Shown here: positions 12,014 through 28,727 of the stretch, in pieces | Layout: every line of letters starts with the position of its first letter | Numbering within the stretch: the stretch's first letter is position 1 | Sequence record: PV889368.1 | Direction: 5' to 3' (one strand) | Source of the DNA: a phage | DNA length: 40,015 nt | Notes under the pieces: generated by a model | What the model was told of the DNA's origin: nothing | Database searches by the model: none | What the model saw: the letters and a program-made list of their open reading frames with translations, nothing else | Translations under genes and position numbers: made by a program

Positions 12014-12026
12014 AATTAATCCTCCG

Positions 12027-12068: not shown

Positions 12069-12070
12069 AA

Positions 12071-13245: not shown

Positions 13246-13357
13246 ATGATAATTCTCCTATTCAATTGAAAGATAAAGTTTATTACTTACTGTACGCCCA
13301 ATCCGTATGGACTGAAGTAATAGGGAAACCTTGAGTCTTTCTCTTGGTCTCCCTATA

Positions 13358-13380
13358 GTGATAGTTTAGTCCTACAGGCT
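13358..13380 (-). promoter_or_regulatory. Phage RNAP promoter (phi10-like)
   Basis: Minus strand CTAAACTATCACTATAGGGAGACC upstream of the capsid gene. Confidence 0.85.
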
Positions 13381-14256
13381 TGAGGCAGCTACCTTAGCGC
13401 GAACTTCCATCGTGTACTTAGCGTCACGCAGGTATCGCGGGTCACTCATAGCCTTAATCATGTCAGCCTTGGAGCTGAATGCTTCTGTCTGAGGAGCCTT
13501 AGGTGCGACCACAGGTTTAGCTTGAGTGGTGATGGTACGCTGAGGTTTAACACCCACAGCTTTACCCAGAGTCTTGCCAGCCAGATTCAGAAGAGCCTTG
13601 GTAGTCGCAATGTCCTTACGAACGATAGCAGCTTCCAGTGCTTCACGAGTTGACGGGTCGTTGGACTCAAGGTGTGACAGGATGCGATTAAACTGTTCAG
13701 CACCCCCAGCGTAGCGAACCACACCAGCAGCATACTGTTCAGCCAGAGCTTCCTGACCACGGACAAACGAATCTACGAAACGCTTGGTGTAACCTGCTTC
13801 CTGCAACTTAGCGTAGGATGCGTCAGACAGCTTACCGTCCTTGGCGTATTCAGCCTTGATAGCGGTAATTTCATCAGCAGTGACCTTGCCAGCTTCTACA
13901 GCAGAAGACACCATGTCGTCGAATGCAGCTTCGTTTTCATCCAGAGCAGTGACACTTTCAGTCAGCTCTTTCGGTGCATCACCTAGTTCGATGAACTCCG
14001 GCTGCTCACCATCGGTATCAGACTCTTCGTCATCTGACTCGTGGTCTTCTTCACCTTCAGTCTCTTCGACGTTCTCGTCTTCTTCGGTCGCCTCTTCGTT
14101 TTCGGCTTCCAGTTGCTTGAAGGTAATAGCGTCATCGCCATCGCGAACAGCTACGTCCTGTTCAAGCATAGACTTCTGGTGTTCGTTCAGGTCCTCAACG
14201 GAACCAGTGATTGCATTAGAGCTAACGCCAAACTCGGCATAAACTGATTGAGACAT
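13372..14256 (-). CDS. Scaffolding protein (gp9)
   Basis: Start moved to ATG 14256..14254 (AAGGAG RBS); acidic protein with VAVRDGDDAI and C-terminal IKAMSDPRY matching T7 gp9. Confidence 0.88.
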   Translation of the reverse strand: MSQSVYAEFGVSSNAITGSVEDLNEHQKSMLEQDVAVRDGDDAITFKQLEAENEEATEEDENVEETEGEEDHESDDEESDTDGEQPEFIELGDAPKELTESVTALDENEAAFDDMVSSAVEAGKVTADEITAIKAEYAKDGKLSDASYAKLQEAGYTKRFVDSFVRGQEALAEQYAAGVVRYAGGAEQFNRILSHLESNDPSTREALEAAIVRKDIATTKALLNLAGKTLGKAVGVKPQRTITTQAKPVVAPKAPQTEAFSSKADMIKAMSDPRYLRDAKYTMEVRAKVAASSL

Positions 14257-14346
14257 TGAGTCATTCTCCTTTAAGTCGTTAATAGGTAACACAGCAACCT
14301 GCCCGCCAGTTACGGCTGGTTGTGCTTTCTCTCACCCAAGCTGTGT

Positions 14347-14369
14347 TGTTCCTATAGTGATAGTTTAGG
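14347..14369 (-). promoter_or_regulatory. Phage RNAP promoter (phi9-like), overlapping the portal gene 3' end
   Basis: Minus strand CTAAACTATCACTATAGGAACAAC. Confidence 0.8.
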
Positions 14370-15933
14370 CTTGAGCCATGTCCTCACCAGCTCCCTGACC
14401 TACAGCAGCGCCCATGTTAGCACCAGCAGCAGACGCACCGTTGACCACAGCTCCTTGAGCGGATTGTTCAGCAATACGTTGCATCTTCTCGTCCTGAGTC
14501 AGCAGAAGACCAGCAGTGTCAATGCCTAAGGCATTCAGCAGTCGCAGCTTCAGGGTCGGCAAGTTAATGTCTGGGTCCTGAGCGAGAGGCTGAAGACCAG
14601 TCATCATGTTGACTGCCTGAGTCAGCTTCTCCAAGTCCTGACCACGACCTAACGCTTCAAGACCAGTGGATACCGTAGGCTCTACCGCTTCTTTCGGAAG
14701 GTCAGGAATCATGCCAGCAGACTGAAGTTGGTTCATCAGTACACGGACGATAGGTAACTGAAGCTCTTGTGACTGTACTGAGTACACGCCACCTAAGGTC
14801 GCCTCCAGTTCGCCAGCAACATAACGAATCTCTTCAGCAGTTACTCGCTCGGCATTACGCTGAACAGCACTATTAAGAAGGAAGGCCCAGCCTAAACGTT
14901 GCTCGATAGCGTCAGCCACCGACTTGGCAATCGTAAAGTCCTGACCTTTCGTCAGTTGCAGGAAGTTGATGTCCTCGACGCGACCAGCCACGAACTCACC
15001 TGTAGCCGCCTTGTTCAGACGACGAGGTTGCGTGATACCGTTCGGGTTAACGAGGCCCACCACCTTGGAGGCTACCTTAGCCATTTTGGTGATAGCTTCT
15101 GTAATCGTCTCCAGCGAGTTCAGGTCTCCCAGATACTCCTCGCAATAAGAACGACCATAGTCTTCACCATCCAGTCGAACCATTCGTACCGGGATGTATG
15201 GACATGCAGTCAGTGGGTAAGAACCCTCGGTCCCTGCTACCTCAATGCCTTCCACTTCCTCGTAGCGCAGATACTCGTCGTCCTGACGATAGATGTGCGT
15301 ATACACTTCCAGCTCGGTGTCAGGCTCATAGTCGTCTGCGTTGAGTTGTGACTTCACGTCTTCCGGTAGAGCACTAAACGCTACCTTGTCGAGAGTCACA
15401 ATCTGCAAGATGTTGCCGAAAGCATCACGCTGAACAACGTATGACACTAAGCGGTACATTCGCATAGGACTGTAAGTACCTTGTTCAGGCTCTGGAATGT
15501 AGAGCAGACAGTTACCGGAGACGATAAGCTGCTTCAGAGCTTCGAACAGTGGCACACGGAAACTGTTAGTCTCCATGTAGGCCATCAACACACGCTCGAC
15601 CATAGCCAGCCCTTCATCAACACGAGCAGCAGCCTCTGAGTCCTGACTCAAGGTCTTGGCCTCATATTCTGAGACTGTCAGTCGCATCCACGGTGACTGA
15701 GGGAATAGTGCCAACATCAGCTTTGCAGCCAAGTTGTTCAAGCAGCGAGCACCTACAGCTTGCCACGGAGTTGTGTACTCAGTAGACGAGTTATCGGACT
15801 CCTTAGGAAACAGTGACGGGATAGTGACAGCAGCACAGTTCTGAGCGCGTGTCTCATATGGCTGTCTACCGTTCTTCAGTCGGTCATAGACCGCTTTGGC
15901 TCCTTCAGCAGCGAACCCTTCACGTTCAGCCAT
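14365..15933 (-). CDS. Portal / head-to-tail connector (gp8)
   Basis: RLKNGRQPYETRAQNCA, TIPSLFPK and TPWQAVGAR match the T7 gp8 N-terminus. Confidence 0.93.
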   Translation of the reverse strand: MAEREGFAAEGAKAVYDRLKNGRQPYETRAQNCAAVTIPSLFPKESDNSSTEYTTPWQAVGARCLNNLAAKLMLALFPQSPWMRLTVSEYEAKTLSQDSEAAARVDEGLAMVERVLMAYMETNSFRVPLFEALKQLIVSGNCLLYIPEPEQGTYSPMRMYRLVSYVVQRDAFGNILQIVTLDKVAFSALPEDVKSQLNADDYEPDTELEVYTHIYRQDDEYLRYEEVEGIEVAGTEGSYPLTACPYIPVRMVRLDGEDYGRSYCEEYLGDLNSLETITEAITKMAKVASKVVGLVNPNGITQPRRLNKAATGEFVAGRVEDINFLQLTKGQDFTIAKSVADAIEQRLGWAFLLNSAVQRNAERVTAEEIRYVAGELEATLGGVYSVQSQELQLPIVRVLMNQLQSAGMIPDLPKEAVEPTVSTGLEALGRGQDLEKLTQAVNMMTGLQPLAQDPDINLPTLKLRLLNALGIDTAGLLLTQDEKMQRIAEQSAQGAVVNGASAAGANMGAAVGQGAGEDMAQA

Positions 15934-15944
15934 TCGTCACCTCC

Positions 15945-16193
15945 TTAAATAGAAATACCGCCACCAGAGGTACGAGAGACCTGAAGGCTACGCTTACCGG
16001 AACGCTTCACTTTCTTCTCGTCAGATGCGGTTGATTCAGTATCCACATCCTCCACTTTTTCGTTCGGTACTTCCACTGGTGCTGCTGGGGTCTGAGCCTC
16101 AACAACCTTAGGCGCATCGTCAGAGCCAAGGCCAACGGTCCCTAATGTACTTTTCACCACTTTCTTGAAAGCCTTACTGATTGATTTACCCAC
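15945..16193 (-). CDS. gp7.3-like virion protein
   Basis: GTG start with AAGGAG RBS; MGKSISKAFKK... and C-terminal SGGGISI resemble T7 gp7.3 (MGKKVKK... SGGGINI). Confidence 0.7.
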   Translation of the reverse strand: MGKSISKAFKKVVKSTLGTVGLGSDDAPKVVEAQTPAAPVEVPNEKVEDVDTESTASDEKKVKRSGKRSLQVSRTSGGGISI

Positions 16194-16608
16194 GATTAAT
16201 CTCCTTGTTCGTGCTAACGCACTTGGTTGTTACGATATCTACCGACCCAGAAACATGCTTGACACGAGAATACCAGCCAAGACCCCAACGCTTGCACTCT
16301 TCGTCTATGATGTGTCTGACAGTCTCAAGAACCTTGCGGGAGGACTGCGAGTCACGACGAATAGCGATGATTGAAAGGTCAAGACCGGGAGTCGGTCGGT
16401 GCCAAGATGCGGTAGCCAGCATGTAGAGATACGCTACTGGTTGACCTGAGACATCGTAGATTGTGTACTCTTCACCATCGAACTCGTCAGCCATACGGTA
16501 AGTATGAGCCTTGAAGTCCTCGAATGACTTGAAGTTAGACTGCCCGTCTTCCCAGAGGCGACAAGCGCACATGTGGCGACCTTCGCGTGAGTTGAGATAT
16601 GGTAGCAT
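16186..16608 (-). CDS. Hypothetical protein in the gene 7 position (140 aa)
   Basis: ATG start, located between gp6.7 and gp7.3 homologs; positional only. Confidence 0.45.
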   Translation of the reverse strand: MLPYLNSREGRHMCACRLWEDGQSNFKSFEDFKAHTYRMADEFDGEEYTIYDVSGQPVAYLYMLATASWHRPTPGLDLSIIAIRRDSQSSRKVLETVRHIIDEECKRWGLGWYSRVKHVSGSVDIVTTKCVSTNKEINRG

Positions 16609-16612
16609 TGTC

Positions 16613-16837
16613 TTACCCCATGTTGACGCCAGAGGCTCGCATAGCGCGGCTAACTGACGATTTATCTTTAGGTGCAGACTCCTTCTTGACCTTCAGGTCT
16701 TTGATACCTTTGGTCTCGTTGGTGTCCACATCCGATTCAGCCCCGATGTCAACTGACGCAACTTCCTCACTCAGTGGTGCTGGTTCAGGTGCTTGGACCG
16801 AAGGCTTCGGAGTGCTAATCTTTGGACTGAAACACAT
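16613..16837 (-). CDS. gp6.7-like protein
   Basis: N-terminus MCFSPKI identical to the T7 gp6.7 start; GGAGGG RBS. Confidence 0.75.
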   Translation of the reverse strand: MCFSPKISTPKPSVQAPEPAPLSEEVASVDIGAESDVDTNETKGIKDLKVKKESAPKDKSSVSRAMRASGVNMG

Positions 16838-16851
16838 AGTCCCTCCTACAG

Positions 16852-17124
16852 TTAATCGAACTGAACGGTATCTTTCAGCTCACGACGCATAGCAATCGCA
16901 GAGTCGAGAGTGTCAGAGCAATACTGGAGACCCTTGATAAACCCGGCAATGAACGCATCGCTGTAGCCCTGCTGCTTGAGGAGACTGATAGCTCCCATCT
17001 TCTCAGCGTAGCTTGCGTTGAACAGTACGTGCAGAAACTGGATGGCAGACTGGGAGATGTTAGGGACATCAAGTCTTTCTTCCTGTAACTGCTTAACAAC
17101 GTTTTCAATAGCATTAATCGCCAT
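16852..17124 (-). CDS. gp6.5-position protein (90 aa)
   Basis: ATG start directly downstream of the phi6.5-like promoter; positional. Confidence 0.5.
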   Translation of the reverse strand: MAINAIENVVKQLQEERLDVPNISQSAIQFLHVLFNASYAEKMGAISLLKQQGYSDAFIAGFIKGLQYCSDTLDSAIAMRRELKDTVQFD

Positions 17125-17185
17125 CTTGAATCTCCTCTTTAAGTTAAGACTAAAGTCTATCTTATAGTCATATCTTAGGGCCTAA

Positions 17186-17208
17186 AGTCCCTATAGTGAT
17201 AGTTTAGT
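17186..17208 (-). promoter_or_regulatory. Phage RNAP promoter (phi6.5-like)
   Basis: Minus strand CACTAAACTATCACTATAGGGACTTTAGG. Confidence 0.85.
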
Positions 17209-17334
17209 GTTTCACCTATGGATGACTGTTGGATTGATAGGATATGACTATCGGTTAGACTCAGTGTTTAGGGCGGTTGTTCGACCCGAACCACTTGTAC
17301 ATGCAGTAAAGGGCCAGAAGTCCGGCCCAGTAGA

Positions 17335-18204
17335 TCACATGGATGGTGTCCACAGGATGACCTCCTTGGACTTAGGGTCATAGTCAGAGGCTCGACAAAT
17401 ACGAGCGACCTGAGCTTGGACCAGAAGTTCCTCCTCGGTCATGCCAGCCTTAGCAGCCAGTGTAACCATGCAGTCCCACAGCGTCATGTCTTCACGCTTA
17501 GGATACTTCTTCCACTCAGTCTTAATCTGTCCTTTGTTCTTGCCAGTCTTAAGCTCACGGCTCTCCTGCACGAAGTAGTACGGATCGTTAAGGAATGCAC
17601 GAGTGGTGTCCTCACCCATTCCCGGAATGCCACCGTAGCCATCTGTAGTATCACCCTTGATGGTCTGCTCCATGTGCCAGTAGTCTGCCTCGGCAGTCGT
17701 ATGACTCAGGATTTCACCAGTGGTTAACCAGAAGAACTCACAGTTCGGGATTGTCTTGAAGTCCTTGTCACAGGACACCAGAACCGCATGGTCGCAACCT
17801 ACAATCTGAGGTCGTGTCCCGATGATACCCATACAGTCATCACCCTCAAGCGTAGGACGCAGGAAGCTGTTGAACCGTGGGTCAGCCATTACTTCGGCTA
17901 CGAACTTCTTGTAACCTACAGGCTTGCGAGAACCTTTACGGTTGGCCTTATAGGTAGGCAGAACGTCCTTACGCCAGTTGTTATCGTCCGTAAAGCACAT
18001 CACAATCTTAGCGTCTTTCCACGCCTTGCGCTTCTTAACGATTTCAGCGATGGTGTTCTCAAGGATACGGCGAGCCTTCTCGTGGTCGCAGATAAGGGTC
18101 CAGATGTCATCTCCCCAGTCTGTCTCGTCCTCGGCAGCAGCCATAGAAGAGAAGACCAGATAGTCACCATCCAGAACCAGAGCTATCTTCTTATTCGAAG
18201 TCAT
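17335..18204 (-). CDS. 5'-3' exonuclease (gp6)
   Basis: DGDYLVFSSMAAAE, CDHEKARRILE, SCDKDFKTIPNC, TIKGDTTDGYGGI and KAGMTEE match T7 gp6. Confidence 0.93.
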   Translation of the reverse strand: MTSNKKIALVLDGDYLVFSSMAAAEDETDWGDDIWTLICDHEKARRILENTIAEIVKKRKAWKDAKIVMCFTDDNNWRKDVLPTYKANRKGSRKPVGYKKFVAEVMADPRFNSFLRPTLEGDDCMGIIGTRPQIVGCDHAVLVSCDKDFKTIPNCEFFWLTTGEILSHTTAEADYWHMEQTIKGDTTDGYGGIPGMGEDTTRAFLNDPYYFVQESRELKTGKNKGQIKTEWKKYPKREDMTLWDCMVTLAAKAGMTEEELLVQAQVARICRASDYDPKSKEVILWTPSM

Positions 18205-18631
18205 CGTCCAGACCTCCAGTAGCCATAGCGACCGTAGCTGGCATCACGGAAACTTTCGGCTCCTTAATACGTTCGAGAGTCACCTCAGGCTTCAGCCATT
18301 TGTTGGCGAACTCATGGGCCATGTCGTTGTCCTCTGAGTTGAGGTGTGACATCAGGTTCCAGAAGTTTGAAGACATCTCAGTCTCCTTCTCAACCGGGCG
18401 ATATACGCCCCAGTCATTTACCTCTGAACCATAGCGGTCACTCCACATGCCACTGGCTACGATGGTCAGCCCGATGAACGGACGCCACTCATAAGCCTCA
18501 GCGGGAGACTCGGTGCATGACTCAACGTCCTTCTCGGTCAAGGTGTATGACCAAGATGCGTAGAACTCAGCGTACTTGCGGCACTCACCCATTTCAAGGA
18601 CCAGCTCTTTCAGACTTTCAGGTATCTTCAT
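18191..18631 (-). CDS. Hypothetical acidic protein in the gene 5.9 position (146 aa), not similar to T7 gp5.9
   Basis: ATG 18631..18629 with GGAGG RBS, ATGA overlap with the gp5.7 stop; ends LDDDFE. Confidence 0.55.
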   Translation of the reverse strand: MKIPESLKELVLEMGECRKYAEFYASWSYTLTEKDVESCTESPAEAYEWRPFIGLTIVASGMWSDRYGSEVNDWGVYRPVEKETEMSSNFWNLMSHLNSEDNDMAHEFANKWLKPEVTLERIKEPKVSVMPATVAMATGGLDDDFE

Positions 18632-18837
18632 AGACAGCCTCCGTGTTGGTTCAGGAACTTGGTGCCAGCAGCGGTAATCTCCCACGCACCGTTGTTACGC
18701 CCATCCATAGACAGGCAGCTTAGATGTCCACGACTCGCAGCCTCAGCCACCAGTGCTGCATTATTGCGCACGTAGTTGGACTGAAAGGTCTTCGGGCAGG
18801 ACTTAAGGGCCGCTAGGACCCGTAAGTATTCACTCAT
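18628..18837 (-). CDS. gp5.7
   Basis: MSEYLRVLAALKSCPKTFQSNYVRNNAALVAEAASRGHLSCLS... is near-identical in pattern to T7 gp5.7. Confidence 0.9.
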   Translation of the reverse strand: MSEYLRVLAALKSCPKTFQSNYVRNNAALVAEAASRGHLSCLSMDGRNNGAWEITAAGTKFLNQHGGCL

Positions 18838-19118
18838 TGCTTGACCTCGAATCTCAGGTTGGACACGCCGAACTGGCCATCACCAAAGGTGTCTACCAGC
18901 TCCTCTTTGATGCTCTTCTTGGCGACAATTTCAAGGGCAGACTCAGGGCCTGACTCGATTGCTGCTTTGACCAGAGCCAACTGAAGCCCATCCAGCTTCT
19001 CACCATCAGCGTAGGCTTTAGTCATCTCAGCCAGTTGGCGACACATGGTCTCTTCTTCATTTGAGTTGACAACCATCTTCAGGTCGAAACTTACACGAAT
19101 ACGTTTAGTAATAGCCAT
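18834..19118 (-). CDS. gp5.5-like (H-NS-binding protein family)
   Basis: Start moved to ATG 19118 (AAGGAG RBS); MAITKRIRVSFDL resembles T7 gp5.5 MAMTKKFKVSFDV. Confidence 0.7.
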   Translation of the reverse strand: MAITKRIRVSFDLKMVVNSNEEETMCRQLAEMTKAYADGEKLDGLQLALVKAAIESGPESALEIVAKKSIKEELVDTFGDGQFGVSNLRFEVKQ

Positions 19119-19135
19119 TAGTGTTACTCCTTTCG

Positions 19136-19291
19136 TTAATGACATTCTTTCCACGTGGGTCCAATCTTACCCTCAGTATCAAGAACACATTTAAAGTTAT
19201 AGAACTCACCCACCTTACGCATAGCAAGTTGAGCAATCTTGACGACTTCTTCGGCAATCTCCTGAGTACGACACGCAATTTGTAACTCATC
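19136..19291 (-). CDS. DNA polymerase gp5, exon 2 (C-terminal 51 aa)
   Basis: Translates to DELQIACRTQEIAEEVVKIAQLAMRKVGEFYNFKCVLDTEGKIGPTWKECH, matching the T7 DNAP C-terminus DEIQVGCRTEEIAQ...NFRCLLDTEGKMGPNWAICH; in frame with exon 1 once the intron is removed. Confidence 0.8.
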   Translation of the reverse strand, partial: DELQIACRTQEIAEEVVKIAQLAMRKVGEFYNFKCVLDTEGKIGPTWKECH

Positions 19292-19641
19292 CTTTCTGTA
19301 TTCTCCCATTACTGGAAGTGTCGGACTATATCATCAGTCTTTGAGGTGACTGTCTGGCGCTTCGGGTTACGTGGGAATCTCACCCACGGCCCTACTCCTT
19401 TCGGATAGTCTCTACGCCTTCCACTCTCTAATCCACCCACAGGCGGCTGAGAACGCCACATTGAATATTTCGGAAGTATCCATCCTGATTCAATTTATGT
19501 GACGTAGGGATTATGCAGCCAGTCTCAGTGGCCTCAAGAATTAACTTCTTGCCTCTCATACATCCTCCCTATGGCTTGGCTCGGTATTGTCCCATTAGGA
19601 GTTCACCGAGTTCACCAGATTTAATGTGCACCATGATGTTA
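19292..19641 (-). ncRNA. Candidate ORF-less group I intron (350 nt) interrupting the DNA polymerase gene
   Basis: Exon 1 ends in U (..GUGCAU); the intron contains GUGCAC able to pair with it including a terminal U-G wobble (P1); the last intron base is G; R-like GUAGAGACUAUCC and S-like GAUAUAGUCC elements occur in that order ~30 nt from the 3' end; no ORF inside. Confidence 0.7.
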
Positions 19642-21657
19642 ATGCACCCATGCCATGTACGCAAAGTCACCTTCCCAGCCGTGAACATACCCTGCCTCTT
19701 CGAGCATACGTTCAGTCTCCACAATCCAGTGCTTACAGACTACCGCACCATCACCTTGAAGTAAGGCGTTCAGTGCTGAGTGTGGAGACCGGATGTGGAT
19801 ACGGCGACCATCAAGTCCACGCAACCAACGGCGCTTCCACTTGACGATATTCTCACCGTCCACCCACTTAGAGTCCGAGATTAACGTATTACTCACAGCT
19901 TCCCTGAGGTCCTTGATGGCTGGTGTACCCTCAATGAATTTCTTCATGAGAGCTGAACCTTCCTTCTTACCACCTCCTACTATCAGTCCAATCTTAGCGG
20001 CCCCTGCACCATACAGGAACGCATAGATGAACGTCTTAGCGTTGTTACGGAAAGCCTCATGGTCGTGGTTAGACTTATCGCGTGGGACGTTAGGTGCTAA
20101 CCCAGCGTTTACTGCGTTGGCCCAGTGGATGTCACCTTCGACCACAGTCTTCGCATAGTCACCACCATCAAACGGAGCCGCTCGGTTCCCCAGACAACGA
20201 AGCTCAAGACCTGAGGCATCCACACCCACTTGAATCCAAGGGTCTGGCTTACCATCCGTCTTGTTCCAAGCTGCACCGAAAGCACCACGGCAAGTCTCAC
20301 CATATGGAGCACCGTTAGCCGGGACCTGAGCCATGTTTGGTGCGCTATGAGTCGCACGTCCGGTTACTGCCCCGCATGGGTTGATTGAACCGTGCATACG
20401 TCCGTCTGGACCTACAAGTTTCAACCATGCGTTCTTACCTTCAGCCGCCTGACCGATTCGCTTCTGTACTACCAGATACTCACGGACCAGCTCTACGCAA
20501 GCCTGAGCCTCTGCGTCTGGTAGCTTAACGTGTTCTAACGTCTCGTCATCGACTACAGGTTTCCCGGTGTCAGTGAAGTCAACAGGCTCCCAGCCACGCT
20601 CCATCAAGACTTTTGCCAAGTGGTCTCCGCTTCCCGGATTAAACTCAACGTAAATGATTGGCGTGAATGGTGCTCCCTCCATCGTGTCTCGCGTATCGAG
20701 TTCACAAGGTTCAAGACCTAAGCGTTGAGCTTTGTTCTTCGGCTTCTTAAATATGCCACCGACCTTAGGATACACGACTCGCGGATACTTCGGAAGGTCC
20801 TTACCTGTCCGTGGATGCCTGAAGAACTCCTTGCCACCCTTCGGTGCGTACCAGCTACCGAAAGTCGAACGCAGCTTGTCAAGCAACTCCGCACGCTTGA
20901 CGGTGAGTTCACGATATAAGCCTTCGACCATCTCGGTGTTCATCGGATAGCCATTACGTTCCATCTTCGCACAGGTCCACGCAGCATCATGTTCCAGACG
21001 CAACGCATAAATCTGGTCGAAAGCGAACTGTTCAGACTGGAAGTAATACTTGTCAGTCAGGAACTTCTTGAACAACGCCAGTGTGACCACAACGTCTTGA
21101 ACGTTATAGTCCAGCATCTCCTGAGACGGGAACAACCATTCGTCCCCAGCCTTATATTCGATACCTTCAGCCTTGCACTTGGCAATGTAATCGTGTTTGT
21201 ACTCACCTTTCATCTCACCGAGACGATAACCCCAAGCCTCAAGAGATTGACGTCCCATCATATTAGGTGGCAGACGACCAGCTTTCACCGCGCCCATGTC
21301 GGAGAACTTAATGTTTGGATACATCAAGCGGCCCAGCACCAAGGTATCAATCATCTTGTGTTTCGGGAAGTTAAAGCGTTTCCCAAAGTACAGACGCTTC
21401 AGCTTGTCAATAGCCGGGACGTCGTAGTTGATACCGTTGTGGAATACCAGCATACCATCAGGTGATGCGGCAATCTCTTCCACCTTCTGCACATACTCTT
21501 TGAAGCCCCCGACGATACCGACCATCGGAGCTACCCCATACTTAAGGGTCTCATTCGACTCGGCGTTAATCAGGACCCCACAGTGGAACTGGGATACTGT
21601 ATCAAGGAGACCGTTTGTCTCGATGTCAGAACCCCAGATACTCTTAAGGTCAAACAT
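19642..21657 (-). CDS. DNA polymerase gp5, exon 1 (672 aa)
   Basis: Start moved to ATG 21657 (GGAGGA RBS); GSDIETNGLL, FHNG..YDVPA, EAWGYRLGEMKGEYK, GRATHSAPNMAQVP, GLELRCL, NAKTFIYAFLYGAG and GDFAYMAWVH match T7 gp5; TAA follows WVH where T7 continues. Confidence 0.92.
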
Positions 21658-21679
21658 GGTTAATCCTCCGTTTAGTCTA

Positions 21680-21720
21680 ATCATAAAGGCCACTCGATGT
21701 GAATGACCTTGAGTCTAGAC
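21680..21720 (-). promoter_or_regulatory. Conserved late intergenic element, copy 1 (candidate RNase III site, R4.7-like position)
   Basis: Plus strand aatcataaaggccac-N-gaatgaccttgagtcta; near-identical copies at 28685..28727 and 38668..38715. Confidence 0.4.
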
Positions 21721-23600
<1,880 letters not shown>

Positions 23601-23646
23601 TCACTCCTTAATCATAAATGCGAACAAAGGGACAGGACTCATTGTC

Positions 23647-23669
23647 CCATCCCTAAGGTGATAGTTTAG
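23647..23669 (-). promoter_or_regulatory. Phage RNAP promoter variant (phi4-like)
   Basis: Minus strand CTAAACTATCACCTTAGGGATGGG; differs from the consensus at two positions. Confidence 0.6.
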
Positions 23670-23881
23670 GCTTTGAAGAACTGAGCCAATTGGTCAGCTT
23701 TGGTGTCAGCTTGACGTGCCTTCATGCCAGCTTCCAGTGACGCGATGGTCAGCTTGTCAGCCAGAGCAGCAGCATCAGCCGCACCATCAGCAGTCTTCTT
23801 TTCTACCTTTCGTTCCAGTACCGCAGCACGACGATAACCACGCACCACCAGACGACCAAGAAATTCGATAAGTTTAATCAC
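23666..23881 (-). CDS. Hypothetical protein (71 aa) in the gene 3.8 position
   Basis: The ORF track entry 23666..23971 overlaps lysozyme by 66 nt; trimmed to GTG 23881 with AAGGAG RBS 9 nt upstream. Confidence 0.45.
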   Translation of the reverse strand: MIKLIEFLGRLVVRGYRRAAVLERKVEKKTADGAADAAALADKLTIASLEAGMKARQADTKADQLAQFFKA

Positions 23882-23904
23882 TGAGTTGTTCTCCTTATAG
23901 TTTA

Positions 23905-24363
23905 TTAGCCTCGGTCGGAAGTGACCAGTTCGTTGGTAGTCAACCAGCGTTGCAAGTCGAAACTTGGACACGCCTTCGGTGCTATGTCATGATGTGCTTT
24001 GATTTCTGCCTGAGGATACAGGGCCTTCAGGTCAGCCAGCTTGTTGCGCAGGGAGTCCATCTGGGCTGGAGTGAAGTTAGCTTCAAACTGACCCTTAGCG
24101 TTGATTCCACCTACAAGGCAGACGCCTACAGACCGTGAGTTCCAGTCCTTAACGTGTGACCCTACGACATTTACCGGACGTCCCTCTTCCACAGTCCCAT
24201 CGCGTTTGATGATAAAGTGGTAGCCAATTGCCAGCCAGCCCTGCTGCTTATGCCACATCTCAATGGTCTCACGACCAATGTCCATAGTCGGCGGGGTCGC
24301 TGAACAGTGGACGAAGATTGCGTCTGTAGCTTGACGCGGTTTGAATTGTACCTTACTTCCCAT
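23905..24363 (-). CDS. N-acetylmuramoyl-L-alanine amidase / T7 lysozyme (gp3.5)
   Basis: VQFKPRQATDAIFVHCSAT, GYHFIIKRDGTVEEGR, GVCLVGGI, FTPAQM and C-terminal HHDIAPKACPSFDLQRW..NELVTSDRG match T7 gp3.5. Confidence 0.95.
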   Translation of the reverse strand: MGSKVQFKPRQATDAIFVHCSATPPTMDIGRETIEMWHKQQGWLAIGYHFIIKRDGTVEEGRPVNVVGSHVKDWNSRSVGVCLVGGINAKGQFEANFTPAQMDSLRNKLADLKALYPQAEIKAHHDIAPKACPSFDLQRWLTTNELVTSDRG

Positions 24364-24826
24364 TGTAAACCACCAGTTCTACTACCACCAGATTCAGATG
24401 TGACTGGAAGCGCTGTGCGTCAGTCGTGTGCATCTGGAGCAACTTATGGTTGAAGACGTGAGAGTTGCTAATCTTCACGTACACTTCGTCAGGCTTACCG
24501 TGGACGATGAACGTCTGACCTACACCAATCTTGTTGATGGTCAGGACTTCACGTTTAACGGTGACAGGAGGGACACTAGAGGCTGGCAGGACTTGAGGTT
24601 TATCCTCTACGATTTCCTCAAGATTTCTTTCTAAAACCCACGCCCCCCACATACCGTCAGGCTGAGTGTCATGACCTGCTGCTCCGTGTTTGTAGGCTCC
24701 ACGCTCAGTGGATTCCACCAGAACAAGTCCAGGTGATGGTGCAGGGTCTTTCGCACATTTCGTAACGATAGTACCTTTGGGCCACCCGTAGCCACTAACC
24801 TTAAGTCTATATTTCTGAGTCATCAT
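24353..24826 (-). CDS. Hypothetical protein (157 aa) inserted between endonuclease I and lysozyme; no T7 counterpart
   Basis: ATG with AAGGAG RBS, ATGA overlap with the gp3 stop and overlap with the gp3.5 start, i.e. tightly embedded in the operon. Confidence 0.6.
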   Translation of the reverse strand: MMTQKYRLKVSGYGWPKGTIVTKCAKDPAPSPGLVLVESTERGAYKHGAAGHDTQPDGMWGAWVLERNLEEIVEDKPQVLPASSVPPVTVKREVLTINKIGVGQTFIVHGKPDEVYVKISNSHVFNHKLLQMHTTDAQRFQSHLNLVVVELVVYNGK

Positions 24827-25275
24827 TTAACTCCTTTCTTCTTGGGAATGAGTATACCTGAAGGCAGACGTACAGTCTCCTCCCGCAGCCACTCAACCGG
24901 GATGAACTTATCGGCATACTTATAGCCGTTCTTTTCGCACCATGCGCCATACGTGGTCGGAGACCCTTTGTATAGCTTGGAGCGGGAACTTGAGAACACG
25001 AACCGAATGTCTAACTCGGGGTGCTGTTCTCGTACCAGAAGGTGCTTCTTCCTGTCATCTGAGTCGAAGATACCTTTGGTCTCCACGATGATACCGTTAG
25101 GAAGGATAAAGTCTGGTGTGTACTTGTGGTCGGAAGCCGGAATCACATAGTTGATATAATGGCTTTCGTACTCCGCTTTGACGCCGTTCTGTTCCAGCCA
25201 CTGCTGGTTCTTGGCTTCAAGTCCAGAGCGGTAGGCACCCACAGAGTGCCCCCGTTTTGCAGACCATTGGGCCAT
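24823..25275 (-). CDS. Endonuclease I (gp3), Holliday junction resolvase
   Basis: VGAYRSGLE, YVIPASDHKYTPDF, LPNGIIVETKG, SDDRKKHLLVREQHPELDIRFVFSSSRSKLYKGSPTTYG match T7 gp3. Confidence 0.95.
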   Translation of the reverse strand: MAQWSAKRGHSVGAYRSGLEAKNQQWLEQNGVKAEYESHYINYVIPASDHKYTPDFILPNGIIVETKGIFDSDDRKKHLLVREQHPELDIRFVFSSSRSKLYKGSPTTYGAWCEKNGYKYADKFIPVEWLREETVRLPSGILIPKKKGVK

Positions 25276-25973
25276 TAGAAGTCGTAATCGCCACCAGAGT
25301 TGGAGTCGTCACCGCCTTCGGAACCATCGTCACCAAAGTCATCAGACCCGAAGTCACCATCGGTTGACGCTTTGTAGCCAGTACCGAGGTCTTCATCATC
25401 ACCCCAGCCGCCATCGCCACCAGCACCATCACCTTTCCACTCCTTCAGTTCTACCAGAAGGCAGGACTCAAGCTGGAGCTTAACGCTTGCACCAGTCGCA
25501 GCGTTCCACTTGAACGGCAGGACTTTAAACTTGACCTTCAGTTTGGAGCCAGCGCCAATATTCGGGACGTCACGGATTAACTTAGCATCGGTGTCGTAGA
25601 ACCGTAATATGATAGGCTCTGACTTACCATCCTTCAGGTAAGACGCGAAGCATTTAAACTTCAGGGTAACAGTACCATCACCATTCTCAATCCACGGCAT
25701 ATCGCCTTCTCGTGGTTCAATAGGCTTCTTGCCACGCTGAACCTGAGGTGGGTTCTTCTCGTGGTCTGCGAGTGCTTTCGCATACGCATCGTCGTGAATC
25801 TTCTGTAAGACATCAATCATCTTACGGACCTTCGGGTTGCTCAGGTCGAATGTCAGGTTAACCTTATGCTCACCACGCTCGTTAAACTTGGTGTCTGCTT
25901 TGTTCAGCCATGCGTAAGGCTCAACGATACCAGCTACCGGAGTGGTGAAAGTCTTCAGTTGCTCTTTAGCCAT
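25275..25973 (-). CDS. ssDNA-binding protein (gp2.5)
   Basis: EPYAWL, NPPQVQRGKKP, EGDMPW, NGDGT, GAGSKLKVKFKVLPFKWNAATGASVKLQLES and acidic C-terminus ending DYDF match T7 gp2.5. Confidence 0.95.
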   Translation of the reverse strand: MAKEQLKTFTTPVAGIVEPYAWLNKADTKFNERGEHKVNLTFDLSNPKVRKMIDVLQKIHDDAYAKALADHEKNPPQVQRGKKPIEPREGDMPWIENGDGTVTLKFKCFASYLKDGKSEPIILRFYDTDAKLIRDVPNIGAGSKLKVKFKVLPFKWNAATGASVKLQLESCLLVELKEWKGDGAGGDGGWGDDEDLGTGYKASTDGDFGSDDFGDDGSEGGDDSNSGGDYDF

Positions 25974-26013
25974 CGGTGTAAATCTCCTAATTTAAAAGTT
26001 ACGAACTGGACGT

Positions 26014-26036
26014 CTGTCCTACAGTGATAGTTTAGG
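26014..26036 (-). promoter_or_regulatory. Phage RNAP promoter variant (phi2.5-like)
   Basis: Minus strand CTAAACTATCACTGTAGGACAG. Confidence 0.65.
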
Positions 26037-26190
26037 CCTCAGGACGAATCCGTCCGACAACAAAACCAGCGTCCTCATACTCTTGGGACTTCAGGGTAGC
26101 CTCTTCAAGAGACTTTGCGTACACCGGAACCTCGAAGGACTGAACGCGACCCTCAAGCTCCACGATGTATTTCTTCTCAACCTCAGTCAT
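26032..26190 (-). CDS. gp2-like inhibitor of host RNA polymerase (52 aa)
   Basis: Not in the ORF track (<60 aa); ATG 26190 with AAGGAG RBS; [16 protein letters not shown]...[10 protein letters not shown] resembles T7 gp2 SFEVPIYAETLDEALE...AGFEVTRVRP. Confidence 0.7.
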
Positions 26191-26268
26191 AAACCGCGCT
26201 CCTTCCATAAGTTGTAGAGCTGAAGGTAATCGACGTTACCTGTCTCCTCAAATTTACGCTCGCACCAC

Positions 26269-26709
26269 TCACTTGGGAGCATAGCACTTACCTTTATGTA
26301 GGTCGAACAGCTCCTGATAGAAGGCTGCTTTGTTCAGGTCCTTCTCCATAGTGGCCAGCTCGGACTTCTTACCAGCTCGGAGTCGATACTTCAGGACGTT
26401 ACCCATGCAGAAGCCACGGAACTCAATGACAGTCATGGACCGGGCGATAATCTCAATGGATTCCACACCATCAAAGACCTGATAGTGGGACGGCTTGCGT
26501 ACACCATCGTCACGGACTTCTGGTTTATCCTGAACACGATTGGTGATAATTAGTGCGGCTTTACCGTGTCTAACTGGCTGCATAATCCCCGGCCATTCCA
26601 CCTCTACTGAGTCATCTGATGTACATACGCTAAGAACCTTACCATCACAGCGGCCACTAAATTGACCATGAGTCCCAACGTAGCGCACAACATCCCCGAC
26701 CTTAATCAT
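26269..26709 (-). CDS. gp1.7-like nucleotide kinase
   Basis: C-terminal KPSHYQVFDGVESIEIIARSMTVIEFRGFCMGNVLKYRLRAGKKSELA..EKDLNKAAFYQELFDLHKGKCYA matches T7 gp1.7; N-terminal part differs. Confidence 0.85.
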   Translation of the reverse strand: MIKVGDVVRYVGTHGQFSGRCDGKVLSVCTSDDSVEVEWPGIMQPVRHGKAALIITNRVQDKPEVRDDGVRKPSHYQVFDGVESIEIIARSMTVIEFRGFCMGNVLKYRLRAGKKSELATMEKDLNKAAFYQELFDLHKGKCYAPK

Positions 26710-26962
26710 TGAACACCTCCTTCACGAACTCAACGAACAGACGAACGCGAGGCCACTTGGTGTAGACCACAGGTACGTTGGTCTCACGCTTCTGGCGAGC
26801 CTCTTCAGCTTTGCCAGGAGTAATCAGAGCGAAGACTGTAGGTGACAGCTTAACGGCCTTCCCGAAGTAGCCCAGCTTCTCGTTGCGCTTAATGCAAGCG
26901 AACGGGTTGTTGGACAGGTGGAATGTACTGGTATAACGATTGAACATTAAGTTCTTAAACAT
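26702..26962 (-). CDS. gp1.6-position protein (86 aa)
   Basis: ATG with AAGGAGG RBS downstream of a phage promoter; positional. Confidence 0.45.
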   Translation of the reverse strand: MFKNLMFNRYTSTFHLSNNPFACIKRNEKLGYFGKAVKLSPTVFALITPGKAEEARQKRETNVPVVYTKWPRVRLFVEFVKEVFND

Positions 26963-26989
26963 GTCGGCCTCCTTAGGTCGAATTTATGG

Positions 26990-27012
26990 TTGTCCTATAG
27001 TGATAGCTTAGG
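26990..27012 (-). promoter_or_regulatory. Phage RNAP promoter (phi1.5/1.6-like)
   Basis: Minus strand CTAAGCTATCACTATAGGACAACC. Confidence 0.7.
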
Positions 27013-27049
27013 GTCAGACTGATGGCCCAGACGATAGCTTGCTAGCATA

Positions 27050-27083
27050 AGCAAAGAAACCCAGCAGTCCGAAGACCACTGGG
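27050..27083 (-). terminator. Intrinsic terminator (TE-like) for host RNAP after the ligase gene
   Basis: Minus strand CCCAGUGGUC-UUCG-GACUGCUGGG (10-bp stem, UUCG loop) followed by UUUCUUUGCUU; same position as T7 TE. Confidence 0.75.
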
Positions 27084-27094
27084 TTGACGTCTAG

Positions 27095-28159
27095 TTAGCT
27101 CTTAACGGTTGGATTGTCTTCCGTTCCACGCCAGCACTTGAAGCTAGGGTGACGTAGTGATCCATCCGGGAAGCGCTCCATGAATAGGACTTCCACCTGA
27201 TTACCCGCAAACGGGTTTCCATAAATAGTGCTTGAGCATAACCCCTTACGCCAGTTTAGAACGGAAGCGGTGAACTCATCCTTCTGCTCCTCAGTAAGAC
27301 CGCAGGCGTTAACCACCATGCCGTCTTCCAAGAGAACCTCGAAGCCAATGACCTTACCTTCGTTGGCCTTACCCGGAGTCCCCCACACGAGGCCGCACAC
27401 TGTCCCGTCGATGGTCTCCTCAGGCTTCATTTTCCACATGCCAGACTTCTTGCCACGCTTGTATTTGCCAAGCGGGTCCTTGACTACCAGACCCTCGTGT
27501 CCTTCCAGACGCTTCTGTTCGTACAGGGAGTTGAGCGACTCAAGGTCATAGACCGTGTGTGACTCAGACAGAACCCAGTCGATTTCCGGGAAGTATTTCT
27601 GGAGGAGAGGGACGATAGCTTCTGCCTTCAGGCGTGTGACGCTATGGATAGGACCTTCGGCTTTCGGGTCAAGGATGACGTTAAGGTCGATGACCCCGTA
27701 TACGACAACTTTGATGAACCTCTGGTCCAGACAGAATGGTAGCTTCTCTTTCTTCCTGTCCTTACCCCAGTGCTCACCAGTTGAAAACTCAAAGTTCTTT
27801 TGCTTCAACCACTTCGTTCGGATGAGACCTGAGGAGGTGTTGAAATCCACACCTTTGATCATGACCTCGCCATCGATCATCAGGCCGATACCTTCATAGC
27901 CAGCTTTACGAAGGAACCACCGCCAGTCAGCCTGAGTCCATGCATTGCCTAACTCAGAGTTCATCCACTCCAGTGCTGGAAGTGGTTTAGACTCACGGCT
28001 TAACCAATAAGTCTCACCCTCTCGCAGCACTAGAAGGTTCAACCGGACACCATCGTACTTCACTTCAGCTTCGAGAGACCCGGCAGCATCCAGTGCCTTC
28101 TTAACGCCAGCCTCAGAGTAATCTACAGCGCGGTGCGGGTTAGTTTTAATAGTTGTCAT
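27095..28159 (-). CDS. ATP-dependent DNA ligase (gp1.3)
   Basis: IKTNP, adenylation motif KYDGVR, WLSR.SK..PALE, DGE.MIKGVDFNTSSGL.RTKW, EGHEGLVVKDP, YKRGKKSGMWKMKPE, GKVIGFEVLLE and PDGSLRHPSF match T7 ligase. Confidence 0.95.
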   Translation of the reverse strand: MTTIKTNPHRAVDYSEAGVKKALDAAGSLEAEVKYDGVRLNLLVLREGETYWLSRESKPLPALEWMNSELGNAWTQADWRWFLRKAGYEGIGLMIDGEVMIKGVDFNTSSGLIRTKWLKQKNFEFSTGEHWGKDRKKEKLPFCLDQRFIKVVVYGVIDLNVILDPKAEGPIHSVTRLKAEAIVPLLQKYFPEIDWVLSESHTVYDLESLNSLYEQKRLEGHEGLVVKDPLGKYKRGKKSGMWKMKPEETIDGTVCGLVWGTPGKANEGKVIGFEVLLEDGMVVNACGLTEEQKDEFTASVLNWRKGLCSSTIYGNPFAGNQVEVLFMERFPDGSLRHPSFKCWRGTEDNPTVKS

Positions 28160-28176
28160 CGTTAGTGTCTCCAGAA

Positions 28177-28464
28177 TTAAAGGAATCGACCAGTGTAGTC
28201 GTTGAACTGTTTGTTAAACCAAGTGGCAACCGCTACTGTCTGCACATCTTCGTCATGAATATTCGGGTACTCCGTGAAGTCCTTCTCGATGAGGACCTCT
28301 TGCGTATGACTGTGGACGATAACCGCCCGGACGCAGTTCCTGTTCATCACCGGGTCAAACCAAGTGCTGACCTCTGCATTGTAGCCCGTCTCGGTCTGCC
28401 AGTTGTGGATGGCTGTACGCAGAGTGTTCATGTTGCCACTATGCGCTCTTGAGAACATGCCCAT
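28177..28464 (-). CDS. gp1.2-like (dGTPase inhibitor family)
   Basis: Position after gp1.1; weak similarity to T7 gp1.2 including HDEDV. Confidence 0.6.
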   Translation of the reverse strand: MGMFSRAHSGNMNTLRTAIHNWQTETGYNAEVSTWFDPVMNRNCVRAVIVHSHTQEVLIEKDFTEYPNIHDEDVQTVAVATWFNKQFNDYTGRFL

Positions 28465-28466
28465 GT

Positions 28467-28646: not shown

Positions 28647-28684
28647 GTGGTTGAATCTCCAGTAGTTTACGTTAGGTTAGGGTT

Positions 28685-28727
28685 AATCATGAAGGCCACG
28701 ACTTTGAGTCATGACCTTGAGTCTAAT
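28685..28727 (-). promoter_or_regulatory. Conserved late intergenic element, copy 2 (candidate RNase III site, R1.1-like position)
   Basis: aatcatgaaggccac-N-catgaccttgagtctaatc; see copies at 21680 and 38668. Confidence 0.4.

What the first reader, a model, noticed from the sequence alone, without database searches (positions are those of the whole stretch)
19136..21657. DNA polymerase gene split by a ~350-nt ORF-less group I-like intron
The gp5 reading frame stops after ...GDFAYMAWVH, about 50 residues short of where T7 DNA polymerase ends. The missing C-terminus (DELQIACRTQEIAEE...CVLDTEGKIGPTWKECH, clearly homologous to the T7 DNAP C-terminus) is encoded in frame 350 nt downstream. The intervening sequence (19292..19641, minus strand) has group I hallmarks: the 5' exon ends in U that can pair as U-G within GUGCAU/GUGCAC (P1), the last intron base is G, and R-like (GUAGAGACUAUCC) and S-like (GAUAUAGUCC) elements sit in the expected order near the 3' end. 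Group I introns with an HNH ORF are known in gene 5 of T7-like phages; this one has no ORF, while a free-standing HNH gene sits elsewhere in the genome (35853..36395).
Basis: partly seen in the sequence, partly recalled or inferred. Interest (0 to 1): 0.8.

Follow-up and report, generated by a model that had tools for sequence, protein, structure and literature searches.

The report
Group I intron with deleted endonuclease gene

Summary
The gp5 frame stops after ...AWVH, and the last 51 codons resume 350 nt downstream. Removing 19292..19641 (-) gives a protein that aligns end to end with T7 DNA polymerase. The joined DNA matches intronless Kayfunavirus polymerase genes as one gap-free piece.

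The intervening sequence is a group I intron. It passes Rfam's gathering score (54.7 bits against 50, E 2.5e-11). It has P1 with a U•G at the splice site, P10, P3-P9, P7.1/P7.2 joined by G-U-A (subgroup IA2) and a terminal G. Comparison supports the structure: 23 of 53 pairs show compensatory changes.

It is not a new intron. It is 348-349/350 identical to the 598-nt intron annotated in phage K1F and relatives, at the His|Asp site of polymerase motif C used by the phiI/W31 introns.

"ORF-less" needs qualifying. A 248-bp deletion between two CCGAAA repeats removed the HNH domain of the intron's endonuclease gene, leaving a 43-codon stub. I found this deleted form nowhere else.

The free-standing HNH gene at 35853..36395 is unrelated to the intron's endonuclease.

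Verdict: a real intron, a new member of a known kind, of low to moderate interest.

The parts
19642..21657 (-). DNA polymerase (gp5) exon 1, ending ...GDFAYMAWVH. The last exon base, U19642, forms the U•G pair of P1.
   Evidence: ORF listing and translation. The ATG at 21657 with a GGAGGA ribosome-binding site is the same start annotated in K1F. Alignment to T7 DNA polymerase.
19292..19641 (-). Group I intron, subgroup IA2, 350 nt. It begins UAA (an in-frame stop for unspliced RNA) and ends with the terminal G at 19292.
   Evidence: Rfam RF00028 at 54.7 bits against a gathering score of 50, E 2.5e-11. 348-349/350 identity to the K1F and ECO104 4-5-2 introns apart from the deletion. Covariation-supported structure. 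Removing it restores an uninterrupted polymerase gene.
19136..19291 (-). DNA polymerase exon 2: 51 codons (DELQIACRT...KECH) plus the stop. It begins with the catalytic Asp-Glu of motif C.
19626..19647 (-). P1: exon GUGCAU plus intron UA pairs with the internal guide UGGUGCAC. The loop holds CAUC (19635..19638), which can pair with the first four exon-2 bases GAUG (19288..19291) as P10.
   Evidence: Coordinates. The U•G pair at the splice site is kept in 9 of 9 homologs (pair 10-24). P10 is read directly from the sequence.
19581..19619 (-). P3 5' strand (19613..19619), then P4 (19604..19609 with 19581..19586) and P5 (19598..19600 with 19590..19592).
   Evidence: P3 has 4 of 7 pairs with compensatory changes, P4 has 2 of 6 and P5 has 2 of 3. 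P4 and P5 are 100% paired.
19416..19580 (-). P6 (GCC 19578..19580 with GGC 19416..19418) and its 159-nt terminal extension, which holds what is left of the endonuclease gene.
   Evidence: P6 is paired in 9 of 9 homologs. In the 225-nt relatives L017 and L018 this extension is about 24 nt, closed by a short hairpin, so it is dispensable by comparison.
19428..19559 (-). Remnant of the HNH homing-endonuclease gene: 43 codons. The first 31 match the K1F endonuclease and are followed by a frameshifted tail (...IQCGVLSRLWVD). Its GGGAGG ribosome-binding site is at 19564..19569.
   Evidence: Alignment to K1F and CLB_P1. tblastn finds only residues 1-37 and 112-132 of the K1F protein. The remnant has no Pfam domain, whereas K1F has HNH_3 at residues 40-81.
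19468..19473 (-). Deletion junction: the single surviving copy of the 6-bp direct repeat CCGAAA. The 248 bp that lie between the two copies in full-length introns are missing.
   Evidence: ECO104 4-5-2 has CCGAAA at both endpoints; K1F has CCGAAA and CCGAAG. Coordinates.
19364..19410 (-).
   Evidence: P7 has 2 compensatory pairs and is 100% paired. The inner helix of P7.2 has 3 of 5 compensatory pairs. The P7.1/G-U-A/P7.2 criterion for subgroup IA2 is quoted in PMC3428280.
19303..19359 (-).
   Evidence: P8 has 3 of 4 and P9 has 4 of 6 pairs with compensatory changes.

Best explanation
[quoted passage not shown] It sits between the His and Asp codons of the catalytic motif C (WVH|DE). After transcription, the ribozyme folds. 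The last exon-1 base U pairs with G in P1. An external guanosine bound at P7 attacks the 5' splice site. The free exon-1 end then attacks behind the terminal G, with exon 2 held by P10, and an mRNA for a full-length, T7-like polymerase results. Unspliced RNA would stop at the UAA formed by the first three intron bases and lack the catalytic Asp-Glu. The intron belongs to the known mobile family found in K1F, 13a and (by insertion site) phiI/W31. That family normally carries an HNH homing-endonuclease gene in the loop of P6. In this genome a 248-bp deletion between two CCGAAA direct repeats removed the whole HNH domain and shifted the frame. The intron can therefore still splice but can no longer drive its own spread. 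What is shown: the boundaries, family membership, the comparative support for the structure, and the deletion with its endpoints. What is inferred: actual splicing, loss of mobility, and the repeat-mediated mechanism of the deletion.
For: Rfam group I model above its gathering score, matched over the full model length. The joined exons align colinearly to T7 gp5 residues 4-704. The joined DNA matches intronless relatives (CY1, YZ1, PE3-1, Mt1B1_P3, pO2, phiHAO1-1, EcoDS1 and others) as one gap-free 345-nt piece. For the structure P1, P3-P9, P7.1 and P7.2 on nine homologs, 96.4% of cells are paired against 33-47% when partners are slid. 23 of 53 pairs have changes on both sides, and 0 of 500 shuffles reach the observed covariation score. 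The intron is identical to K1F's except for one or two bases and a clean 248-bp gap. The K1F polymerase CDS is annotated as a join with a homing endonuclease inside, and a paper calls it a putative group I intron (PMC4925675). The phiI/W31 introns are reported as IA2, with the ORF in P6a, at Pol I site 881, the same His|Asp position (PMC3428280). The HNH_3 domain lies at residues 40-81 of the K1F protein, and the window keeps only residues 1-31 in frame. A perfect CCGAAA repeat sits at both deletion endpoints in the closest intron, ECO104 4-5-2. 225-nt members of the same family at the same site have no ORF at all and only a short hairpin closing P6, so the deleted region is dispensable for the core. 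The polymerase is essential to a T7-like phage, so an unspliceable insertion at the active site would not persist (established knowledge).
Against: No RNA or biochemical data exist, so splicing is inferred. The 350-nt deleted form was found in no other sequence: 41 phage records all carry the long form, the IMG/VR junction scan found nothing, and the one metagenome hit was a chance 21-mer. The deletion therefore rests on this single assembly. The 159-nt leftover P6 extension could in principle misfold and slow splicing. The MFE fold z-score of -2.63 is modest, and a nested fold cannot show P3 and P7 together. The phiI and W31 sequences themselves could not be compared.
Confidence: 0.88

Rival explanations
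1. The 248-bp deletion is an assembly or sequencing artefact, and the real phage carries the full 598-nt intron with an intact endonuclease gene.
For: The deleted form is unique to this window among all collections searched.
Against: The endpoints fall exactly on a 6-bp direct repeat with one copy retained, the classic footprint of a biological short-repeat deletion. Six bases are far too short to cause an assembler to collapse a repeat (inference). The rest of the intron is clean, with one further substitution.
Confidence: 0.06
2. The endonuclease-less intron is still mobile because an endonuclease is supplied in trans (collaborative homing), either by the window's own free-standing HNH gene at 35853..36395 or by a co-infecting K1F-like or T3-like phage.
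For: [quoted passage not shown] T3 gp5.3, next to its intronless polymerase gene, is 48% identical to the K1F intron endonuclease.
Against: The window's own free-standing HNH is not of that lineage (30% over 40 residues, E 0.002; E 0.005 against T3 gp5.3). It lies after the terminase gene, not next to gp5, and it co-occurs with an endonuclease-bearing intron in Ro45lw. No gp5.3-like gene lies between exon 2 and gp5.5. Help from a co-infecting phage is possible but cannot be tested here.
Confidence: 0.15
3. The interruption is not spliced at the RNA level. The polymerase is either made as two polypeptides (684-residue ORF plus the 57-residue ORF MGEYRK...) or is a pseudogene.
For: Several database records annotate exon 2 as a separate small gene (gp5.4, 'DNA polymerase'). 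A 57-codon ATG ORF covering exon 2 exists at 19136..19309.
Against: The break falls between His and Asp of the catalytic motif C. The intervening RNA has a complete, covariation-supported ribozyme. Its boundaries reproduce the intronless gene exactly. The ATG of the 57-codon ORF lies inside P9 of the ribozyme. Introns at the same site in phiI and W31 are reported to splice in vivo and in vitro (from my recollection of Bonocora & Shub 2004's abstract; the paper could not be opened).
Confidence: 0.02

Closest known systems
[quoted passage not shown]
   Same: Same insertion site. The sequence is 348-349/350 identical outside the deletion, with the same ribozyme core, the same ribosome-binding site and the same first 31 codons of the endonuclease gene.
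   Different: Those introns are 598 nt with an intact 131-codon HNH gene. The window's is 350 nt, with the HNH domain deleted and the frame broken.
Self-splicing IA2 introns of T7-like phages phiI and W31 (Bonocora & Shub 2004) with the endonuclease I-TslI
   Same: Subgroup IA2, ORF position in P6a, and insertion at Pol I site 881, i.e. between His and Asp of motif C (PMC3428280). The K1F-type endonuclease is 77% identical to that of the Teseptimavirus 13a intron and 48% identical to T3 gp5.3.
   Different: The phiI and W31 sequences could not be compared directly because they are not in the collections available. Those introns encode a working endonuclease and this one does not.
Endonuclease-decayed or ORF-less phage group I introns, such as the T4 nrdB intron with a truncated I-TevIII (own knowledge), and the degeneration stage of the homing cycle
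   Same: The ribozyme is retained while the endonuclease gene is inactivated by deletion. Introns that lack ORFs or encode defunct endonucleases, and are mobilised in trans, are described for T4-type phages (PMC3984707).
   Different: A different host gene, phage family and endonuclease family. Here the deletion is very recent, with only one other substitution relative to an intact relative, and its repeat-mediated origin is visible.
225-nt ORF-less introns at the same WVH|DE site in IMG/VR contigs (L017, L018)
   Same: Same site, same core sequence and no endonuclease gene.
   Different: Those have a short hairpin closing P6 and no trace of an ORF. The window's intron still carries both ends of the endonuclease gene, so it clearly derives from an endonuclease-bearing form.

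Membership tests
Group I intron (Rfam RF00028) | Covariance-model score at or above the curated gathering threshold | tested here: met
   54.7 bits against 50, E 2.5e-11, model positions 1-253 of 253, at 19302..19651 (-).
Group I intron (Rfam RF00028) | P1 formed by the 5' exon end and an internal guide sequence, with a U•G wobble at the 5' splice site | tested here: met
   GUGCAU|UA pairs with UGGUGCAC. The U•G pair is kept in 9 of 9 homologs.
Group I intron (Rfam RF00028) | Terminal G as the last intron base, and P10 pairing with the 3' exon | tested here: met
   G at 19292. Intron CAUC (19635..19638) is complementary to exon-2 GAUG (19288..19291).
Group I intron (Rfam RF00028) | Conserved core P3-P9, including the P3/P7 pseudoknot, supported by covariation | tested here: met
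   53 pairs, 96.4% paired against 33-47% in slid controls. 23 pairs have compensatory changes, including 4 in P3 and 2 in P7. 0 of 500 shuffles reach the observed score.
Group I intron (Rfam RF00028) | Guanosine-binding site in P7 | tested here: inconclusive
   The conserved AGACUA/UAGUC P7 sequences, with a G-C pair at the start of the helix, are present and invariant. Binding itself cannot be tested computationally.
Group I intron (Rfam RF00028) | Self-splicing with exact exon ligation | not testable with these tools
   Only the in-silico ligation could be checked. It restores a colinear T7-like polymerase and the intronless DNA sequence of relatives.
Subgroup IA2 | Extra helices P7.1 and P7.2 between P7 and P3', joined by G-U-A (criterion as quoted in PMC3428280) | tested here: met
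   UCC-GAAA-GGA, then GUA, then GGG..GUGGG-loop-CCCAC..CCC at 19364..19404. The inner helix of P7.2 has 3 of 5 compensatory pairs.
K1F / phiI / W31-type intron of T7-like DNA polymerase genes | Insertion between the His and Asp codons of motif C (Pol I site 881; T7 His653|Asp654) | tested here: met
   ...AWVH|DELQ aligns to T7 ...AWVH|DEIQ. Site 881 for phiI and W31 is stated in PMC3428280. All 8 IMG/VR relatives have the same site.
K1F / phiI / W31-type intron of T7-like DNA polymerase genes | Sequence homology of the ribozyme | tested here: met
   99.4% identity to K1F, 99.7% to ECO104 4-5-2 and about 89% to 13a. The phiI and W31 sequences themselves were not available.
K1F / phiI / W31-type intron of T7-like DNA polymerase genes | Intact HNH homing-endonuclease gene in P6a | tested here: not met
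   248 bp are deleted. The remnant has 43 codons and no HNH_3 domain.
Autonomously mobile (homing) intron | Encodes a functional endonuclease that cuts the intronless allele | tested here: not met
   The catalytic domain is absent, and there is no other I-TslI/gp5.3-like gene in the window.
Collaborative homing pair (intron plus free-standing endonuclease, as with T3 gp5.3) | A free-standing endonuclease gene of the same lineage next to the target gene | tested here: not met
   gp5.5 starts 18 nt after exon 2 with no gene between them. The only free-standing HNH (35853..36395) is unrelated and lies after the terminase gene.

The most novel reading that the evidence does not exclude
The endonuclease-deleted intron is more than a decaying relic. 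It may be kept because it disrupts the WVHDE target site and so protects this phage's polymerase gene from the I-TslI/gp5.3-type endonucleases of co-infecting relatives, without the cost of making an endonuclease. It could still be copied into intronless genomes whenever such a relative supplies the enzyme in trans. On this reading, the spectrum of 225-nt, 350-nt and 598-622-nt forms at one site would be a natural series for testing the Bonocora-Shub model, in which introns and endonuclease genes join and separate repeatedly.
Probability: 0.25. Interest if true: 0.4.

Novelty: new member of a known kind. Interest (0 to 1): 0.22.

Why it matters
For annotation, gp5 of this phage should be written as a join of 19642..21657 and 19136..19291. 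The small ORFs inside the intron (19309..19461) and over exon 2 (19136..19309) should not be called as genes.

For biology, the locus gives an unusually clean snapshot of the loss stage of the homing-endonuclease life cycle in a T7-like phage. The intron is still about 99.7% identical to mobile copies, its endonuclease gene was removed by a single repeat-mediated deletion, and the ribozyme is untouched. Together with the 225-nt ORF-less and 598-622-nt endonuclease-bearing forms at the same site, it could be used to compare splicing efficiency, fitness cost and trans-mobilisation. It does not reveal a new mechanism.

Tried and rejected
1. I looked for the same deleted form elsewhere. The phage collection holds only long forms. 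The IMG/VR scan for the junction found nothing. The metagenome scan gave one hit (L014), which is a chance 21-mer with unrelated flanks and no BLAST similarity to the window. An exact lookup of the 43-aa remnant found nothing on record.

2. I tried to read the primary papers: Bonocora & Shub 2004 (PMC529087 and by DOI), Bonocora & Shub 2009 (by DOI and PMC2856452) and Scholl & Merril 2005 (PMC1317022). None is held. Statements about them rest on secondary papers or are marked as my own recollection.

3. I considered that the free-standing HNH at 35853..36395 might be the intron's displaced endonuclease. I rejected this on sequence and on its position in relatives.

4. I considered two-polypeptide polymerase, pseudogene, intein and translational-bypass readings. 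I rejected them because a complete ribozyme is present and its removal is exact.

5. The single-sequence MFE fold recovers P1, P4, P5, P7.1, P7.2, P8 and P9, but not the P3/P7 pseudoknot, and has only a modest z-score of -2.63. I therefore relied on the comparative test instead.

6. I did not infer a co-conversion tract from the identical flanks (21 nt upstream, 11 nt downstream of the intron), because that stretch encodes the highly conserved motif C and may be identical for that reason.
Full report
**What is in the sequence.** On the minus strand, the gp5 reading frame runs from the ATG at 21657 to ...GDFAYMAWVH and then meets a TAA at 19639..19641. That ATG follows a GGAGGA ribosome-binding site and is the start annotated in K1F. 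Exactly 350 nt further on, at 19291, the frame resumes with DELQIACRT...KECH: 51 codons and a stop at 19136..19138. Joining 19642|19291 gives a 723-residue protein that aligns with T7 DNA polymerase residues 4-704 in one block with no gap at the junction (E 2e-271). The break lies between T7 His653 and Asp654, inside the catalytic motif C. At the DNA level, the last 189 nt of exon 1 joined to exon 2 match the uninterrupted polymerase genes of many Kayfunaviruses as a single 345/345-nt piece at 91-94% identity. Examples are CY1, YZ1, PE3-1, Mt1B1_P3, pO2, phiHAO1-1 and EcoDS1.

**It is a group I intron.** A scan of the whole window against Rfam found a single family above its gathering score: RF00028 at 19302..19651 (-), 54.7 bits against 50, E 2.5e-11, over the full model.

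I assigned the helices from that alignment and by eye (coordinates):
- P1: exon GUGCAU plus UA pairs with UGGUGCAC, with the splice-site U in a U•G pair.
- P10: CAUC in the P1 loop pairs with the first exon-2 bases GAUG.
- There is no P2.
- P3, P4, P5 and P6 follow.
- P7: GACUAU pairs with AUAGUC.
- P7.1 and P7.2 are joined by G-U-A. PMC3428280 quotes this as the mark of subgroup IA2.
- P8, then P9 with a GUAA loop, then the terminal G at 19292.

I tested this structure on nine distinct homologs from Escherichia, Salmonella, Aeromonas, Edwardsiella and Klebsiella phages, with the ORF region cut out (alignment A2). 96.4% of cells form standard pairs, against 33-47% when the 3' partners are slid by 1-3 columns. 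23 of 53 pairs show changes on both sides. No shuffle out of 500 reaches the observed covariation score. Every helix except the 2-bp P7.1 and the outer part of P7.2 has compensatory pairs, including both strands of the P3/P7 pseudoknot. A single-sequence MFE fold recovers P1, P4, P5, P7.1, P7.2, P8 and P9 (z = -2.63).

**It is a known intron with a piece missing.** The window is a Kayfunavirus (Autographiviridae, Studiervirinae), about 94-95% identical to its nearest database relatives over 25 kb. The intron region matches K1F, CLB_P1, Ro45lw and others, but there the same query spans about 913 bases instead of 665.

In K1F the polymerase CDS is annotated as a join, with a 131-codon "homing endonuclease" inside. 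A published comparison calls this a putative group I intron (PMC4925675). Aligning the window with K1F and CLB_P1 shows identity at every intron position but one, plus one clean 248-bp gap inside that endonuclease gene.

The K1F protein has its Pfam HNH_3 domain at residues 40-81. The window keeps the ribosome-binding site, the ATG and codons 1-31. It then shifts frame (248 is not a multiple of 3) and stops after 43 codons (19428..19559). Only residues 1-37 and 112-132 of the K1F protein can be found by tblastn. So "ORF-less" means that the endonuclease gene has been deleted, not that the intron never had one.

**How the deletion arose.** The closest intron is ECO104 4-5-2, 349/350 identical. 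It has the hexamer CCGAAA at both deletion endpoints, and the window has exactly one copy, at 19468..19473. K1F has CCGAAA and CCGAAG. Loss of the DNA between two short direct repeats with one copy retained is the usual footprint of replication slippage or short-homology recombination. I infer that mechanism here. It also argues against an assembly error.

The deletion is probably recent, since the intron carries only one other substitution (position 186, in the remnant and not in the core). The flanking exon 1, by contrast, is only 94.7% identical to K1F's. An intron far more conserved than the gene it sits in, and present in only some Kayfunaviruses, fits recent horizontal spread by homing before the endonuclease gene was lost.

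**Does the deleted form occur elsewhere?** I did not find it in any collection searched:
- All 41 phage records that hold at least 80% of the intron have the long form, spanning about 592-623 nt.
- The junction 21-mer has no match in IMG/VR.
- Its single match in the JGI metagenome contigs is a chance hit with unrelated flanks.
- The 43-residue remnant is not on record as a called protein.

**The family has other lengths at the same site.** Scanning IMG/VR with a conserved core segment gave eight loci, all interrupted at WVH|DE. Six are 598-622 nt with a 131-138-codon HNH ORF starting MRGK. Two are only 225 nt, with no ORF and a short hairpin closing P6: L017 9375..9599 and L018 2608..2832. 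The L017 copy passes Rfam's gathering score at 61.2 bits. By comparison, then, everything the window has lost, and more, is dispensable for the ribozyme. That supports the inference that the 350-nt form still splices.

**Relation to the described systems.** PMC3428280 states that the phiI and W31 introns are subgroup IA2, carry their HNH ORF in P6a, and sit at Pol I site 881, which is the His of VHDE. All three statements fit the K1F-type intron. The K1F endonuclease is 77% identical to that of the 13a (Teseptimavirus) intron. It is 48% identical (E 5e-33) to T3 gp5.3, the free-standing HNH gene next to T3's intronless polymerase gene. This matches the relationship that Bonocora & Shub 2009 reported between I-TslI and T3 gene 5.3. 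That statement is from my recollection of the abstract, because the paper could not be opened. PMC10448857 summarises the arrangement as collaborative homing.

The gene at 35853..36395 (-) encodes 180 residues with an HNH_3 domain. It is not of the same lineage: 30% identity over 40 residues to the K1F protein and E 0.005 against T3 gp5.3. In PE3-1, JSS1, Ro45lw and others it lies at the genome end after the terminase gene. Ro45lw carries both it and the full endonuclease-bearing intron. I treat it as an independent selfish gene.

**Mechanism and confidence.**
- Shown: the exact boundaries, the ribozyme family and subgroup features, the comparative support for the fold, homology to the K1F intron, and the deletion with its repeat endpoints.
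- Inferred: the RNA self-splices by the standard two-step guanosine-initiated pathway and so yields a full-length polymerase. Supporting this, an unspliced message would end at the intron's UAA and lack the catalytic Asp-Glu, which would be lethal for a T7-like phage. Also inferred: the intron can no longer home by itself.
- Overall confidence is 0.88.
- Rivals: the deletion is an assembly artefact (0.06); the intron is mobilised in trans (0.15, compatible with the main reading); there is no RNA splicing (0.02).

**Novelty and interest.** The intron family, its site and its endonuclease are already described. Endonuclease decay is the expected next stage for a fixed homing element. Introns that lack ORFs or encode defunct endonucleases are known in phages (PMC3984707). 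What is new is this particular deleted allele and its clearly legible origin. I rate it a new member of a known kind, with interest of about 0.2.

Noticed in passing
window 35853..36395 (-): Free-standing 180-aa HNH_3 endonuclease gene just downstream of the 587-aa ORF at 36409..38172 (-), which I take to be the terminase large subunit from its position. It is 84-98% identical to genes at the right genome end of PE3-1, JSS1, SR04 and Ro45lw, and is absent from many other Kayfunaviruses. It is probably an independent homing element whose target is unknown.
   Followed up: partly
window 19309..19461 (-) and 19136..19309 (-); K1F DQ111067 15365..15517: Small ORFs lie on the ribozyme core (50 aa) or cover exon 2 from an ATG inside P9 (57 aa). 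Several GenBank records annotate their equivalents as genes ('unknown', 'gp5.4', 'DNA polymerase'). These look like annotation artefacts caused by the intron.
   Followed up: partly
L001 2650..3247 (K1F); also L005, L006, L008, L003: The full-length endonuclease-bearing introns score only 34-45 bits with Rfam RF00028, below the gathering score of 50, because of the roughly 400-nt insertion in P6. The window's shortened intron scores 54.7. Automated Rfam annotation would therefore miss the intact introns and find only the decayed one.
   Followed up: yes
L017 9375..9599 and 8689..8917; L018 2608..2832 (IMG/VR UViG 3300045988_051581 and _087812): Truly ORF-less 225-nt introns of the same family sit at the same WVH|DE site. 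L017 also has a second ORF-less group I intron about 450 nt upstream in the same polymerase gene (69.1 bits). I found no description of ORF-less forms at this site in the papers searched.
   Followed up: partly
L007 (Citrobacter phage NS1, MN715150.2 872..1479): This copy of the intron looks damaged. The P7 3' strand reads AUACUC instead of AUAGUC, there are changes in P7.1/P7.2, and there is a 10-nt insertion before P6. The sequence after the terminal G is not polymerase exon 2. The record starts near here, so this may be a permutation or an assembly problem.
   Followed up: no
L011 1149..1420 (Salmonella phage Arash); L012 191..442 and 818..1449 (Aeromonas phage MQM1); L003 621..902 (Aeromonas phage PT2): Related group I introns occur in polymerase genes of unrelated phages. 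Arash has a 272-nt ORF-less one (58.9 bits). MQM1 has two, one ORF-less and one with an HNH ORF. PT2's intron endonuclease is annotated at only 93 aa and may also be truncated.
   Followed up: no
window 1..40015: The window appears to be a complete Kayfunavirus genome, reverse-complemented and circularly permuted relative to the T7 convention. On the minus strand, the probable terminase ORF (36409..38172) and the HNH gene come before the 893-aa ORF at 29049..31730, which I take to be the RNA polymerase. It is below about 95% identity to any record in the August 2025 phage collection.
   Followed up: partly
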